From: a virus
UHGV virus genome: UHGV-0038384
Length of the DNA: 11,815 bases
Direction: 5' to 3' (one strand)
Numbering within the stretch: position 1 is the first letter of the stretch; every line of letters starts with the position of its first letter. Below the pieces are notes generated by a model. It was not told the DNA's origin, ran no database searches, and saw nothing but the letters and a program-made list of their open reading frames with translations. A program made the position numbers and the translations under genes. This document shows positions 8,222-10,521 of the stretch, in pieces.

Positions 8222-8449
8222 TTATTCTCCGGTATGGGGCGAGTTATTATTCTCGTGAATTGCCATCACTGTATTTAATTCATTAATAACAGGCGTTAAT
8301 AGCGTACGCACGGCAGAAAACATCATTGAATCAGATTCATCGCCACTTTCCGGCACATCAATTAACTTAAGTAGTAATGCGTCCATTTCCTTTGCGAGGA
8401 TTAATGCGTTTTCAGAATGAACAAGAACATCAAAGGGTATTTTATGCAT
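8222..8449 (-). CDS. Hypothetical 75-aa acidic protein
   Basis: ATG at 8449 preceded by GGGGGGGAG; ends 5 nt before the 99-aa gene start. The track's 109-aa version begins upstream inside the preceding repeat unit. Confidence 0.5.
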   Translation of the reverse strand: MHKIPFDVLVHSENALILAKEMDALLLKLIDVPESGDESDSMMFSAVRTLLTPVINELNTVMAIHENNNSPHTGE

Positions 8450-8612
8450 GACTCCCCCCCTGGCGAATACGGGCGACAAAAATAAGATGTGCGTGCGGCA
8501 ACTGGGCGCGGGCTTCGCGTTCAGTGGCTGCGGTAACGGTGAATATTGCAATGCTGTCTGTCAGGCACTGCATAAAGCGCCAGACAAAGTAAGGGCGTGC
8601 GGATACAGCCAT
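8442..8612 (-). CDS. Small repeated protein, unit 3 (56 aa), possibly Icd-like
   Basis: AGGAG Shine-Dalgarno plus ATG at 8612. Translation MAVSARPYFVWRFMQ...VTAATEREARAQLP...FVARIRQGGSHA shares motifs with unit 2. Icd-like assignment is from memory of the family and is uncertain. Confidence 0.35.
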   Translation of the reverse strand: MAVSARPYFVWRFMQCLTDSIAIFTVTAATEREARAQLPHAHLIFVARIRQGGSHA

Positions 8613-8898
8613 GTGAAAGGCTCCTACAGTAATTTTAAGGAGTCTCGCTACTACGCTGTCAAACATGGTGGCGAGACGTAACAGGGTTGACAGACTGGCA
8701 CTGTAGAGACCAGCGAGCGCAAAGGCTCCCCCGTTACGCCCCGCCATAATGCGGGTATGGGTAGGTTTACGGACACAAAAAAACCGCATATCGGAATGTA
8801 AGCGGCTGTCCGCTACAGTATTCAGGCTGTCAAACCCGGTCGCCATGTGGGCGACGGGGGAAGCATACAGCCCCGTGATAATTTTTTGCAAGCGGTTT

Positions 8899-9087
8899 TT
8901 ACGCATGATGTGACCCCTGACGAATACGAGCGGCAAATACAGCAACACAACCTGACGGGCAACGGCTACGCGCTTCGCGTTCTGTCCAGGCGGTTACGTG
9001 GATGATTTGAGATTCTGACGCGCCAAAGATGATAAAGCGCCAGATAAATGCGGTTTGAGAATGTACAAGGGTAGGGATAGTAGCCAT
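8899..9087 (-). CDS. Small repeated protein, unit 2 (62 aa), possibly Icd-like
   Basis: GAGGAGG Shine-Dalgarno 8 nt before ATG at 9087. Translation MATIPTLVHSQTAFIWRF...VTAWTEREARSRCP...FAARIRQGSHHA. Confidence 0.4.
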   Translation of the reverse strand: MATIPTLVHSQTAFIWRFIIFGASESQIIHVTAWTEREARSRCPSGCVAVFAARIRQGSHHA

Positions 9088-9456
9088 GTTGGCAGCCTCC
9101 TCAGTGTGGTTAAGATAACCGCCACGCAAAAGGCTAATTTCGCTGGTGGCGGACTGTACAGGGTTAGCCTTACCGGACACTGAAGAAACCGGCGCGGATT
9201 GCTCCGCCCCCGTACAGCCCACCATTGATAAGGTGTGACTATGCGGCACAAAAAAACACGCGGGGCGCGTGCTGTGCGCTTCAGTTGTTTTCAGGAGGCT
9301 AATCCCGACACCCGTTTTATGAGGTGCGCGGGAATCATAGCCATTTTTGCTGGTGGCGATCAAGCGGTTTTTTTCTCCGGCACTCAGTGCCAGAAAACGC
9401 CACACAAAGGCCGTTTGTGTGTGTACAAGGTGTGGTATATGATTTACGGCAACCAT
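9088..9456 (-). CDS. Small repeated protein, unit 1: N-terminal homologue with a degenerate tail, fused in frame to unit 2 with no stop of its own
   Basis: AGGAG Shine-Dalgarno plus ATG at 9456; MVAVNHIPHLVHTQTAFVWRFLALSAGE parallels the unit 2 N-terminus; the frame stays open to the unit 2 stop at 8899. Confidence 0.25.
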
Positions 9457-9536
9457 AACGGCTCCTAGTTTACGTTGTTGGTTAGAAGCCCCGTTACTGC
9501 TCCTACAGTGCGGGGCTTTGCTTTTTGTGTTGATTG

Positions 9537-9557
9537 TGTGTAATGTGTCATTACACA
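9537..9557. promoter_or_regulatory. Inverted repeat upstream of the Arc-like gene, candidate autoregulatory operator
   Basis: TGTGTAATG-N3-CATTACACA (9-bp arms) about 30 bp upstream of the GTG start at 9586. Confidence 0.35.
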
Positions 9558-9585
9558 TAAATACATTACATGAGGTGTAATTAAC

Positions 9586-9765
9586 GTGTCAACACACAAA
9601 AACGAAAGGCGTGGTAATCCTCCGTTCCAGTTCCGTTTAGATCCTGACTTACGGGAAAAGATGGAAAAGGCACAACAACAGGACGGCGATGATTCTCTTG
9701 CTGCCTGGATAAAGCGAATAATCCGCAAAGAATTACAGCAACGCGGCATAGAACCCAAAGGATAA
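9586..9765 (+). CDS. Arc/Mnt-type ribbon-helix-helix DNA-binding protein (59 aa, GTG start)
   Basis: Not in the ORF track (below its length cutoff). GAGGTG Shine-Dalgarno 8 nt before GTG. Translation VSTHKNERRGNPPFQFRLDPDLREKMEKAQQQDGDDSLAAWIKRIIRKELQQRGIEPKG fits the RHH pattern (P.F.FRL...LREK.......G.S......RI). Confidence 0.55.
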   Translation: MSTHKNERRGNPPFQFRLDPDLREKMEKAQQQDGDDSLAAWIKRIIRKELQQRGIEPKG

Positions 9766-10147
9766 AAACTATCAGCGCCGTGGTGTGAGGTACTCCGGCG
9801 CATTGCTTTACAGGCGCACACAATGACCAACGAAGAATCAACCGAAAAAACATCACCTGCACGAAAAAGACGACGCAGAAAGAAAGAGCATGAATCAGAA
9901 CGATTCGCGCCGTGTTCTTTTGCCCTTGAGAAGTACCTTAAAGAATACTCATCAAAGGAGAGAGCTTCGCAGTTATGGCAACGAACTGAACCAGACTGAT
10001 TGCATTGCCCACCAGCCTGATAGCGGCTATCATCCCCGTGCTTATGTTTGGGATCACACACACAAACAGCGCAGCGGGTTATCTGTTCAGAAAGACGGCT
10101 CCATATCGGGGCCGCTTTTTTCGTGTTTGTCATATCTGTGATACCCG

Positions 10148-10354
10148 TTAAGCAGCCGTTCCGCGTGCTTCCTCTTCGCGTTCTTTCTGCCAGGACAACA
10201 CATCATCCTCATACCATCCGCGACGGCGTAAACCAACGCGAAAACCCTGCGGAAATTCTCCGGCGTTGATCATGCTTTGCAGCGTGCTGTCTGCCTTGAT
10301 GTGGATAATTTTTTTTACTTCCTGGCGAAAGATAATTTTTCTGATTGCTTCCAT
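10148..10354 (-). CDS. alpA: AlpA-family transcriptional regulator (prophage CP4-57 regulatory protein type)
   Basis: 68 aa; IIFRQEVKKIIHIKADSTLQSMINAGEFPQGFRVGLRRRGWYEDDVLSWQ matches the AlpA helix-turn-helix pattern; lies on the integrase side of the operon. Confidence 0.8.
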   Translation of the reverse strand: MEAIRKIIFRQEVKKIIHIKADSTLQSMINAGEFPQGFRVGLRRRGWYEDDVLSWQKEREEEARGTAA

Positions 10355-10431
10355 CGTGATTTACCTTGTGAATCCGGTGTATTCCGGTGACAAATACGGT
10401 AAATCATCAGATATGGGTAAAAACAGTTCCC

Positions 10432-10447
10432 ACCGTTTTTAAACGGT
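10432..10447. promoter_or_regulatory. Palindrome upstream of alpA
   Basis: ACCGTTTTTAAACGGT, perfect inverted arms ACCGTTT / AAACGGT, followed by a partial repeat ACACCGTTTTTT; sits between the int-operon terminator and the alpA start. Confidence 0.3.
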
Positions 10448-10487
10448 ATACACCGTTTTTTATATTGATGATTTGAAATGGAATTAT

Positions 10488-10510
10488 AAAAAAAGCGGCA
10501 TTTCTGCCGC
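10488..10510 (-). terminator. Minus-strand rho-independent terminator after the int / ORF83 unit
   Basis: On the minus strand: stem GCGGCA, loop GAAA, stem TGCCGC, then T7. Confidence 0.55.
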
Positions 10511-10521
10511 TTCCAGGATTG

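What the first reader, a model, noticed from the sequence alone, without database searches (positions are those of the whole stretch)
9537..10147. Plus-strand Arc-like RHH gene convergent with alpA, followed by an ORF-poor CA-rich gap
The RHH gene has a palindromic operator-like site upstream and is the only convincing plus-strand gene in the island, embedded antisense within the minus-strand operon. The 380 bp between its stop and the alpA stop has no convincing gene; a 58-aa polybasic ORF at 9823-9999 lacks a Shine-Dalgarno. The region contains ACACACACAAACA-type low-complexity runs. Possibilities: the island's master repressor (Stl-like role), the antitoxin of a degraded toxin-antitoxin pair, or a convergent-transcription switch controlling alpA read-through.
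Basis: partly seen in the sequence, partly recalled or inferred. Interest (0 to 1): 0.45.

Follow-up and report, generated by a model that had tools for sequence, protein, structure and literature searches.

The report
Repressor–antisense RNA lock in a PICI
The small plus-strand gene is a real ribbon-helix-helix DNA-binding protein that, with a previously unannotated antisense RNA and a hidden promoter, probably forms the missing "off switch" of a widespread family of E. coli phage-parasitic islands, and the "empty" gap beside it is in fact coding on both strands.

Summary
The window is an EcCICFT073-type Gram-negative phage-inducible chromosomal island (PICI) at tRNA-Pro/yejM. The RHH ORF (9586-9765, +) is real: it is conserved in many Enterobacterales, Orbaceae and Pasteurellaceae, has an RHH-like fold, and carries four clustered half-sites upstream (9538-9582) that change together with its beta-strand residues.

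The "ORF-poor gap" is not empty. ORF2 (9823-9999, +) is a conserved small E. coli protein, present in EcCICFT073. The minus strand carries a selectively maintained open frame (10133-9465) that starts 14 nt after alpA and couples into the eta/Icd-like ORF. This matches the P4 eta paradigm. The CA run is not significant.

Two further elements lie next to the finding:
- A conserved, near-consensus minus-strand promoter. Its -35 (TTGACA, 9592-9587) overlaps the RHH start codon, and its -10 and start site lie under the RHH half-sites.
- A 77-nt plus-strand antisense RNA (9451-9527), with a conserved -10, strong covariation and a terminator. It covers the ribosome-binding site of the eta/Icd-like ORF.

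Best reading: a P22 immI-like lock (Mnt/Arc-type repressor plus Sar-type antisense RNA) guarding the island's early operon. The degraded toxin-antitoxin idea is rejected. All mechanism steps are inferred from sequence.

The parts
9415..9443 (+). Promoter of the antisense RNA: -35 TTGTGT (9415-9420), 17-bp spacer, -10 TATGAT (9438-9443)
   Evidence: In 49 aligned loci from many genera, the -10 positions T43, A44 and T48 (TAnnnT) are invariant or nearly so, although the amino acids encoded on the other strand differ. The -35 is only moderately conserved. No transcript data.
9451..9527 (+). 77-nt cis-antisense small RNA. The 5' stem-loop has CCUC-type anti-Shine-Dalgarno bases in its apical loop, followed by a terminator hairpin and a U-run. 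It is complementary to the stop codon of the upstream minus ORF and to the SD and ATG of the eta/Icd-like ORF.
   Evidence: RNAalifold consensus of 22 pairs. 95.4% of cells are paired, 15 pairs show compensatory changes, 0/500 shuffles reach the observed values, and slid controls give 38-49% paired. G-U pairs are about 15 times more frequent than A-C mismatches, which points to the plus strand. Covariance model R1 scores 67.7 bits (E 4e-13) here and 1e-11 to 1e-17 in 19 places not used to build it, on the RHH strand only. MFE -30.4 kcal/mol, z -3.7. No Rfam family matches.
9538..9582 (.). Operator cluster: four GTGTAATG-type half-sites at 9538-9545 (+), 9549-9556 (-), 9564-9571 (-) and 9575-9582 (+)
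   Evidence: Operator sequence co-varies with the RHH beta-strand class across loci: PPFQFRL with GTAATG/CATTAC; KQIALRV with GTATG..CATAC or CAAGTGT..ACACTTG; PQYQMRL/PPFQMRL with ATGGTAATTACCAT; DQYQIRL with GTTGTAATTACAAC.
9563..9592 (-). Conserved sigma-70-type promoter reading leftwards: -35 TTGACA (9592-9587, overlapping the RHH GTG-TCA-A), and -10 TAATGT (9568-9563, 18-bp spacer) or TGTAAT (9570-9565, 16-bp spacer). Predicted start is about 9556.
   Evidence: A perfect TTGACA sits at this position in 63 of 74 distinct loci. A TAnnnT or TGTAAT hexamer follows at 16-18 bp, and the -10 is better (TATGAT, TATAGT, TATATT) in other subfamilies. The Ser2 codon is nearly always TCA, against 17.5% TCA among Ser codons in background genes. 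The scan missed it because of that scan's -10 rule. No transcript data.
9586..9765 (+). RHH (Arc/Mnt-like) DNA-binding protein, 59 aa
   Evidence: 117 homologue clusters at 50-98% identity across Enterobacterales, Orbaceae and Pasteurellaceae. The gene always lies between the primase/Icd genes and the integrase, on the opposite strand. Structure and fold evidence. Weak NCBIfam matches to YlcI_YnfO_N (E 5e-4) and VapB.
9823..9999 (+). ORF2, a small polybasic protein (58 aa) of unknown function; second gene of the plus-strand operon
   Evidence: 24 homologue clusters, all E. coli or Shigella, 57-70 aa. Intact in 13 loci, with in-frame indels. Follows either RHH or YlcI/YnfO alleles, including in EcCICFT073. 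The SD is weak (AGG at 9811-9813). dN/dS cannot separate it from the overlapping minus frame (0.45 against 0.55).
10096..10121 (+). Intrinsic terminator of the RHH-ORF2 transcript, 27 nt before the alpA stop codon
   Evidence: 7-bp stem with 6 G-C pairs, then CTTTTTT; z -3.3.
9465..10133 (-). 222-codon open frame that begins 14 nt after the alpA stop and runs antisense through ORF2, RHH, the operators and the antisense-RNA terminator. Its TAG stop (9467-9465) lies inside the SD (AGGAG, 9466-9462) of the next ORF.
   Evidence: The equivalent frame is open for 220-432 codons in all 11 E. coli loci and is fused in frame to the Icd-like ORF in five of them. It is open across RHH in 58 of 76 loci against 26.8 +/- 3.7 under synonymous resampling, and in 28 of 38 representatives below 80% nt identity against 15.3 +/- 2.5, P < 0.001. 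No Pfam or NCBIfam hit. The sequence does not look like a protein.
8899..9456 (-). Eta-like ORF (Phage_ASH plus Icd-like domain) that contains the isrK-like and C4 RNA genes. ATG at 9456.
   Evidence: Pfam Phage_ASH E 3e-11 and NCBIfam phage_ICD_like E 9e-18. Rfam isrK at 9251-9327 and C4 at 9142-9229. A PLE-like promoter at 9363-9334.
10148..10354 (-). alpA (P4 vis homologue), upstream gene of the minus-strand chain
   Evidence: Pfam Phage_AlpA E 0.003. RefSeq names it a helix-turn-helix transcriptional regulator.

Best explanation
The finding sits in the control hub of an EcCICFT073-type Gram-negative PICI.

Shown from sequence and comparison:
- A 59-aa RHH protein is encoded on the plus strand.
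- Four half-sites immediately upstream of it co-vary with its DNA-reading beta-strand.
- These half-sites overlie the -10 and start site of a conserved, near-consensus minus-strand promoter whose -35 is the RHH start codon region.
- About 100 nt downstream of that promoter lies the ribosome-binding site of the eta/Icd-like ORF that leads into the replication genes.
- A conserved, structured 77-nt plus-strand RNA with its own -10 and terminator is exactly antisense to that ribosome-binding site.
- The RHH gene is followed by a variable cargo slot (ORF2 in E. coli) and a terminator facing alpA.
- The opposite strand of the whole RHH-ORF2 unit is kept as an open frame coupled to alpA.

Inferred:
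- RHH binds the half-sites and shuts the minus-strand promoter, as Mnt and Arc shut Pant in P22. This probably also favours its own weak, interdigitated promoter.
- The antisense RNA blocks translation of the eta/Icd-like ORF on any transcript that carries its target, as Sar does for ant. Such transcripts would then be exposed to Rho-dependent termination.
- The alpA-coupled open frame lets helper-induced alpA-promoter transcripts be translated through the region, as P4 eta does.
- Strong leftward transcription from the alpA promoter would collide with RHH-ORF2 transcription, lower RHH and flip the switch.

RHH would therefore be the candidate quiescence repressor of this PICI family.
For: - Element identity: 100% match to E. 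coli S1-CAM-02-A at tRNA-Pro/yejM. The late module is the same as in EcCICFT073, and CFT073 has the same opposite-strand pair (YlcI/YnfO-type 59 aa plus an ORF2 homologue) between alpA and Icd.
- RHH.
- Operators and their co-variation with the beta-strand.
- Minus-strand promoter. TCA codon bias.
- Antisense RNA. It is present in at least 1145 of 5426 complete E. coli genomes and is never annotated as an RNA.
- RHH stands alone next to alpA in minimal elements.
- Open minus frame.
[quoted passage not shown] P22 immI comprises the mnt and arc repressors plus sar antisense RNA, controlling ant (PMC2629481).
Against: - There are no expression data of any kind. Both promoters, the RNA, and translation of either strand are predictions.
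- The -10 of the minus-strand promoter is only 3/6 (TAATGT), or 5/6 without the critical A at -11 (TGTAAT), in this window.
- No convincing plus-strand promoter for RHH was found between 9529 and 9575. RHH may instead depend on read-through of the antisense-RNA terminator, which would change the logic.
- Fold-search E-values are all above 1. The NCBIfam hit is below its cut-off (20 against 30 bits). The profile search against PDB sequences found no RHH protein.
- The operators occur only at the RHH gene itself, so pure autoregulation of a cargo operon would explain them equally well.
- Published EcCICFT073 work induced the island by AlpA alone and did not need to invoke a repressor.
- The loci are phylogenetically related, so the counts overstate independence.
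Confidence: 0.5

Rival explanations
1. RHH is only the autoregulator of a plus-strand accessory ('moron') operon. It controls itself and whatever cargo lies downstream (ORF2, small lipoproteins, TA, GmrSD-type defence genes) and has no role in the island's life cycle. The overlap with the minus-strand promoter would be incidental.
For: The slot downstream of RHH is highly variable and holds typical accessory or defence cargo. The operators occur only upstream of RHH. YlcI/YnfO-type alleles replace RHH in the same slot.
Against: RHH is retained where there is no cargo at all (Xenorhabdus, Enterobacter soli, Erwinia). Its position relative to the antisense RNA, the TTGACA box and the eta/Icd ORF start is fixed across genera and across specificity classes. 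The Ser2 TCA codon is fixed at nucleotide level, which fits a DNA signal on the other strand.
Confidence: 0.25
2. The control is exerted mainly by convergent transcription and RNA rather than by protein binding. RHH-ORF2 transcription and the antisense RNA interfere with alpA read-through transcripts through RNA-polymerase collision, duplex RNA and RNase III. The RHH protein only sets its own level.
For: RHH-ORF2 (9586 to about 10121) is fully antisense to the alpA-coupled frame. The terminator stops 27 nt short of alpA. The antisense RNA is the best-supported element of the region.
Against: This does not explain why the operators coincide with a conserved minus-strand promoter core, nor why operator and beta-strand co-vary. 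The two mechanisms are not exclusive.
Confidence: 0.15
3. RHH is the antitoxin of a toxin-antitoxin pair. ORF2 would be a small toxin or the remnant of one.
For: RHH antitoxins are common. There are weak hits to VapB and fold hits to ParD, MazE and CopA antitoxins. JGI labels homologues 'HicB family'.
Against: No conserved partner exists. ORF2 is confined to E. coli and Shigella. Many elements have RHH directly abutting alpA. One locus carries a complete DinJ-YafQ pair downstream, with its own antitoxin. ORF2 matches no toxin family.
Confidence: 0.04
4. The RHH 'gene' is a shadow of the real minus-strand gene: only the long minus ORF is expressed, as some RefSeq annotations imply.
For: RefSeq annotates a 247-aa minus-strand protein instead of RHH and ORF2 in O157:H7, and 'Icd-like' pseudogenes elsewhere. 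The minus frame is under selection to stay open. The two frames share wobble positions, so dN/dS cannot discriminate between them.
Against: The plus frame gives an RHH pattern, a confident two-helix model and RHH fold neighbours. Beta-strand classes match operator classes. Unrelated RHH-type alleles (YlcI/YnfO) occupy the same slot. The minus translation is Cys/Ser/Arg-rich and matches no family.
Confidence: 0.04

Closest known systems
Bacteriophage P22 immunity I region (mnt, arc, ant, sar RNA)
   Same: RHH repressor(s) whose operator lies on the promoter of an antirepressor/Bro-network gene. A small cis-antisense RNA is complementary to that gene's ribosome-binding site. The regulator is transcribed in the opposite direction from interdigitated promoters. 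The region behaves as a variable 'moron' (PMC2629481).
   Different: One RHH gene rather than two. No detectable sequence relationship of the RNA to sar (no Rfam hit). The target is an eta/Icd-type ORF in a satellite, not ant in a phage. The whole unit is embedded antisense in a translated frame coupled to alpA. No experimental data exist here.
Satellite phage P4 left-operon control (PLL, vis, eta/kil, PLE, CI RNA, seqA)
   Same: alpA/vis is followed by a long frame that is translationally coupled to it. That frame spans an internal constitutive promoter and the CI/seqA (C4/isrK) RNAs, and ends in a Kil/Icd-type peptide. Translation of the frame is thought to prevent termination (PMC10111431).
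   Different: P4 gave no DNA match to this region, so no plus-strand RHH gene, antisense RNA or RHH-controlled promoter was detected there. In this window the frame is about 690 nt longer, is split into two coupled ORFs, and overlaps two plus-strand genes.
EcCICFT073 and other Gram-negative PICIs (int-alpA-Bro zone-pri)
   Same: Same architecture and the same late module. CFT073 carries the homologous opposite-strand pair and the antisense RNA.
   Different: Published descriptions treat AlpA as the activator and state that a global repressor is unclear (PMC6092414). The 'Bro zone' paper does not mention opposite-strand genes. CFT073 has a YlcI/YnfO-type allele rather than this RHH allele.
SaPI/Gram-positive PICI master repressor Stl/Rpr
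   Same: Proposed role: keeping the island silent until a helper phage acts.
   Different: Stl proteins are larger HTH repressors, transcribed divergently next to int and inactivated by binding a helper protein. Nothing here indicates protein-mediated derepression. No homology.

Membership tests
Ribbon-helix-helix (Arc/MetJ/CopG) DNA-binding proteins | N-terminal beta-strand with alternating residues, followed by two helices joined by a short G-x-(S/T/N)-type turn | tested here: inconclusive
   The alignment shows FQFRL/IALRV, then helix, DGD(E/D)S turn, helix. AlphaFold gives H20-33 and H38-52 at pLDDT above 90. No strand forms in the monomer model, which is expected for a strand that pairs only in the dimer.
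Ribbon-helix-helix (Arc/MetJ/CopG) DNA-binding proteins | Significant sequence or structure match to known RHH proteins | tested here: inconclusive
   About 22 of 25 Foldseek PDB hits are RHH proteins, but E is 1.8-9.4. hhalign against Mnt is in register, with pairwise E 0.0016 and probability 16%. NCBIfam YlcI_YnfO_N scores 20 bits against a cut-off of 30. Pfam gives nothing. The profile search against PDB sequences finds no RHH protein.
Ribbon-helix-helix (Arc/MetJ/CopG) DNA-binding proteins | Binds repeated or inverted subsites, usually at its own promoter | tested here: met
   At sequence level only: four half-sites spaced 11 bp apart within each pair lie upstream. Operator classes co-vary with beta-strand classes in four or more lineages. 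Binding itself was not tested.
Type II toxin-antitoxin (RHH antitoxin) | A conserved cognate toxin gene adjacent in the same operon | tested here: not met
   The downstream gene is absent, or unrelated between lineages. ORF2 is restricted to E. coli/Shigella and matches no toxin family.
P22 immI-type module | Repressor operator overlapping the promoter of the controlled (antirepressor/Bro-network) gene | tested here: met
   At sequence level: the half-sites cover the -10 and start site of the conserved TTGACA promoter that points to the Phage_ASH/Icd ORF. Promoter activity was not tested.
P22 immI-type module | Small cis-antisense RNA complementary to the target's ribosome-binding site | tested here: met
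   Computationally: conserved -10, structure with covariation, terminator, plus-strand G-U bias, and complementarity to SD 9466-9462 and ATG 9456. No transcript evidence.
P22 immI-type module | Homology of the RNA to sar, or of the protein to Mnt/Arc | tested here: inconclusive
   No Rfam match for the RNA. The protein shows only weak in-register similarity to Mnt.
P4 eta/kil translation-dependent read-through | A frame starting next to the alpA/vis homologue, spanning an internal promoter and the CI/seqA RNAs, and ending in a Kil/Icd peptide | tested here: met
   The stop codon lies within the next SD at 9467-9462. The frame is fused in five related loci.
P4 eta/kil translation-dependent read-through | Translation of the frame suppresses Rho-dependent termination | not testable with these tools
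   Only indirect evidence: selection at synonymous sites keeps the frame open.
Rfam RNA families (for the antisense RNA) | A match at or near gathering score to any curated family | tested here: not met
   No hit with E <= 1 in 9440-9530 on either strand. PGAP leaves the region without an RNA feature.

The most novel reading that the evidence does not exclude
Gram-negative PICIs (EcCICFT073 family and relatives across Enterobacterales, Orbaceae and Pasteurellaceae) do possess the 'missing' quiescence system. It would be a P22 immI-like lock made of an RHH repressor and an undescribed structured antisense RNA, written antisense inside a reading frame that is itself kept open only so that it can be translated. 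This would be a three-layer, two-strand overlapping switch that decides whether alpA-driven transcription reaches the replication genes.
Probability: 0.35. Interest if true: 0.8.

Novelty: new variant of a known kind. Interest (0 to 1): 0.6.

Why it matters
PICIs are major vehicles of horizontal transfer and phage interference in Enterobacteria. For the Gram-negative ones, the published model has an activator (AlpA) but no known repressor.

A conserved RHH protein, an unannotated small RNA present in about a fifth of complete E. coli genomes, and a hidden promoter at exactly the junction between alpA and the replication operon give a concrete, testable candidate for that repressor function. 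The model island EcCICFT073 carries the same parts, so the test is straightforward.

The region is also a clean natural example of antisense-overlapping genes in which one frame seems to be maintained for the act of translation rather than for its product. It also explains a recurrent annotation conflict in RefSeq: 'Icd-like' or 'ash' pseudogenes against small plus-strand ORFs.

Tried and rejected
1. dN/dS to decide which strand of the gap codes. The plus (RHH/ORF2) frame and the open minus frame share wobble positions, so the values are nearly equal (0.45 against 0.55). Uninformative.
2. My first frame argument, that the open frame requires avoidance of TTA/CTA/TCA codons, was wrong. RHH genes are full of these codons. 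It was corrected by explicit frame bookkeeping and synonymous resampling.
3. Sequence searches of PDB with the protein and with the profile gave only chance-level hits.
4. Pfam found nothing for RHH, ORF2 or the minus ORF.
5. A search of 50,697 phage records, including P4, with 9396-10147 gave no match.
6. A structured RNA in the gap was not found: 9763-9825 has z -1.1 and 9997-10095 has z +1.0. No tandem repeat.
7. The generic promoter scan found neither the antisense-RNA promoter nor the minus-strand TTGACA promoter. Both came from comparative alignment.
8. I could not locate a convincing plus-strand promoter for RHH.
9. The primary P4 eta/kil paper (Forti et al. 1999) is not held. The mechanism is cited through PMC10111431.
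10. A literature search for PICI plus antisense RNA or RHH returned nothing relevant. The library is incomplete, so prior description cannot be excluded.
Full report
**What the window is**

The window matches E. coli S1-CAM-02-A at 100% identity, in an island inserted at tRNA-Pro between yejM and a yejO pseudogene. On the minus strand the gene order is:
- integrase
- a small hypothetical gene
- alpA
- [the finding]
- 'ash'/Icd-like ORFs
- DUF4222
- primase
- SSB
- PerC
- major capsid and head-decoration proteins

CFT073 carries the same late module and the same overall order in EcCICFT073, the model Gram-negative phage-inducible chromosomal island. Rfam finds two C4 (P4 CI-type) RNAs and two isrK (seqA-type) elements just left of the finding. 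These are the immunity RNAs that PMC10111431 reports in the 'Bro zone' of such islands.

**Check of the observation**

The RHH ORF (9586-9765, GTG start, GAGG 10 nt upstream) is there and is convergent with alpA (10148-10354, minus strand). The palindrome is exact: GTGTAATG-tgt-CATTACAC at 9538-9556. It is accompanied by two further half-sites at 9564-9571 and 9575-9582. Across the whole window the word is not over-represented (6 matches against about 10 expected), so the signal is that four copies sit within 45 bp.

A plus-strand terminator lies at 10096-10114 followed by CTTTTTT. The CA run exists but is not a repeat, and the surrounding RNA is unstructured.

**The RHH protein**

Homologues at 50-98% identity form 117 clusters in Escherichia, Serratia, Pantoea, Yersinia, Xenorhabdus, Proteus, Gilliamella/Frischella, Mannheimia and others. 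In 80 fetched loci the gene always lies on the strand opposite to the primase/Icd and integrase genes, and between them.

The alignment shows the RHH pattern: a short strand (FQFRL or IALRV), a helix, a DGD-x-S turn, and a second helix. The supporting evidence is consistent but individually weak:
- The AlphaFold model has two confident helices.
- Its PDB neighbours are almost all RHH proteins, although no E-value is significant for so small a domain.
- The profile aligns in register with P22 Mnt.
- NCBIfam gives a sub-threshold YlcI/YnfO hit.

In many E. coli islands, including EcCICFT073, the same slot holds a 'YlcI/YnfO family' 59-aa protein with the same strand-helix-helix layout.

The upstream repeats change with the beta-strand. 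Four or more classes of strand sequence go with four classes of palindrome. This is what is expected if the strand reads that DNA.

**The 'gap' is not empty**

On the plus strand, ORF2 (9823-9999) is intact in all 13 E. coli loci examined. It occurs in three allelic types that differ by in-frame indels, and all share the core EHESERFAPCxFxLExFLKEY. It follows either RHH or YlcI/YnfO, and EcCICFT073 has it (WP_000130015, 57 aa, ending in the same ...WQRTEPD). Homologues are confined to E. coli and Shigella.

In other genera the slot between RHH and alpA varies:
- empty (Xenorhabdus, Enterobacter soli, Erwinia, where a bona fide AlpA gene abuts RHH)
- roughly 50-aa lipoprotein-like peptides
- a second RHH
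- DinJ-YafQ
- a GmrSD-type gene

The interval is therefore a cargo slot. RHH is not the antitoxin of a decayed pair.

**The minus strand of the gap**

A 222-codon ORF runs from 10133, 14 nt after the alpA stop, to 9465. Its TAG stop lies inside the AGGAG of the next ORF, whose ATG is at 9456. That next ORF is the Phage_ASH/Icd-like, eta-type ORF.

In all 11 E. coli loci an ATG-initiated frame of 220-432 codons starts within 95 nt of alpA and runs through the plus-strand genes. In five loci it is fused in frame to the Icd-like ORF. Long equivalents occur in other genera.

This frame shares wobble positions with RHH and ORF2, so dN/dS cannot say which strand codes. Synonymous resampling of RHH can test whether the frame is kept open:

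| Data set | Loci with frame open | Expected under resampling |
|---|---|---|
| 76 distinct loci | 58 | 26.8 +/- 3.7 |
| 38 representatives below 80% nt identity | 28 | 15.3 +/- 2.5 (P < 0.001) |

The encoded sequence is not protein-like and matches no family. [quoted passage not shown] PGAP's 'Icd-like' or 'BRO-N' pseudogenes and the 247-aa O157:H7 protein are this frame.

(a) *Antisense RNA.* An alignment of the 190 nt upstream of RHH from 49 loci shows three features:
- an invariant TAnnnT (window TATGAT, 9438-9443)
- an invariant A eight bases later (9451)
- from that A, a two-domain RNA ending in a G+C-rich hairpin and a U-run (to about 9527)

The structure is 95.4% paired, with compensatory changes in 15 of 22 pairs. 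No shuffle reaches the observed values, and slid controls drop to 38-49% paired. G-U pairs far outnumber A-C mismatches, so the plus strand is the folded one.

A covariance model finds the RNA, on the RHH strand only, in every further locus tested, including CFT073 and O157:H7. It occurs twice where the unit is tandemly duplicated. The RNA is exactly antisense to the stop codon of the bridging frame and to the SD and ATG of the eta/Icd-like ORF, and CCUC-type bases sit in its first loop. Rfam has no such family. RefSeq never annotates it, although the region occurs in at least 1145 of 5426 complete E. coli genomes.

(b) *Minus-strand promoter.* On the minus strand, the bases of the RHH start codon, Ser2 codon and first base of codon 3 read TTGACA in 63 of 74 distinct loci. 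A TAnnnT or TGTAAT hexamer follows 16-18 bp downstream. Ser2 is almost always TCA although TCA is a minority Ser codon in neighbouring genes. This points to a DNA signal rather than a protein constraint.

In the window the -10 (9568-9563 or 9570-9565) and the predicted start (about 9556) lie under half-sites 3 and 2. The transcript would run through the antisense-RNA target into ATG 9456.

**Most likely mechanism (inferred)**

- RHH bound to its four half-sites occludes this leftward promoter, and so silences the eta/Icd-to-replication operon from that entry point.
- The antisense RNA masks the ribosome-binding site of the first ORF on any transcript that carries it. That includes alpA-promoter read-through, but not transcripts from the internal PLE-like promoter at 9363-9334, which start downstream of the target.
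- The alpA-coupled frame allows helper-induced alpA transcripts to be translated across the region.
- Such transcription is head-on to RHH-ORF2 transcription and would reduce RHH.

The closest precedent is P22 immI, where the RHH repressors Mnt and Arc and the antisense RNA Sar control the antirepressor gene (PMC2629481). The detail that Mnt activates its own promoter by repressing Pant is from my memory.

For Gram-negative PICIs the literature states that a global repressor is unclear and that AlpA is an activator (PMC6092414). I found no description of the opposite-strand genes or of the RNA, but the searchable library is incomplete.

**Limits**

- Nothing here is expression data.
- The window's -10 for the minus-strand promoter is mediocre.
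- I could not find RHH's own promoter, so RHH may be made by read-through of the antisense-RNA terminator.
- The RHH assignment rests on many weak, concordant signals rather than one significant match.
- ORF2's function is unknown.
- The main rival is that RHH merely autoregulates a cargo operon.
- Counts over loci are inflated by shared ancestry, although the main tests were repeated on diverged representatives.

**Verdict**

The locus is best filed as a new variant of a known kind: an immI-like repressor/antisense-RNA lock in a satellite, overlapped by an eta-like translated frame. It is of moderate to high interest because it makes the question of how Gram-negative PICIs stay silent directly testable in EcCICFT073.

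Noticed in passing
window 8445-9327 (minus strand): The immunity unit (isrK/seqA-like leader, C4/CI-type RNA, Icd-like peptide) is present twice in tandem: isrK 9251-9327, C4 9142-9229 and Icd-like to 8902; then isrK/c4-a1b1 8777-8868, C4 8664-8751 and Icd-like to 8445.
   Followed up: partly
window 9118-10133; L003, L084-L087, L090: RefSeq annotation of this region is inconsistent between genomes. Some carry minus-strand 'ash family', 'Icd-like' or 'BRO-N' pseudogenes, or a 247-aa hypothetical protein (WP_001304194). Others carry the plus-strand RHH/YlcI and ORF2 genes. The minus-strand calls are translations of RNA genes and of the alpA-coupled open frame.
   Followed up: yes
L088 1992-3315; L089 1225-2550: Some E. 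coli islands carry two complete [antisense RNA - RHH-type regulator - small cargo ORF] units in tandem (YlcI/YnfO unit, then RHH unit). Each has its own copy of the RNA, which suggests modular duplication or recombination of the lock.
   Followed up: partly
L010, L019, L046, L049 (about 183-350 nt after the RHH start): In several genera the cargo slot after RHH encodes roughly 50-aa peptides with a hydrophobic N-terminus and a Cys-containing tail (for example MKKIVLGLAVIIIALIIFKSCSSSASVCGSK...). These are possible lipoproteins or small membrane toxins.
   Followed up: no
L062 3256-4988: In one Kosakonia element the cargo slot after RHH holds a GmrSD_N (DUF262) protein plus a second large gene. 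The RHH-alpA interval may therefore act as an anti-phage defence hotspot.
   Followed up: partly
window 10375-10514: Upstream of alpA there are nested direct and inverted repeats (AAACAGTTCCCACCGTTTTT / AAACGGTATACACCGTTTTT, 10419-10460). A minus-strand terminator-like hairpin (10514-10491) follows the preceding small gene. This is a candidate AlpA-autoregulated or helper-responsive promoter region.
   Followed up: no
L009, L013, L083 (minus ORFs of 475-596 codons): In some elements the open minus frame that crosses RHH is fused in frame to a tyrosine-recombinase-like protein (…LGHSNPAITRTYLQL…), far upstream of that protein's likely true start.
   Followed up: no
window 9763-9830: The roughly 65 nt after the RHH or YlcI stop codon (containing GCGCCG…CGGCGC) is about 90% conserved between otherwise different units (L088, L089). 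Its fold is not better than shuffles (z -1.1). It may be a recombination joint between regulator and cargo.
   Followed up: partly
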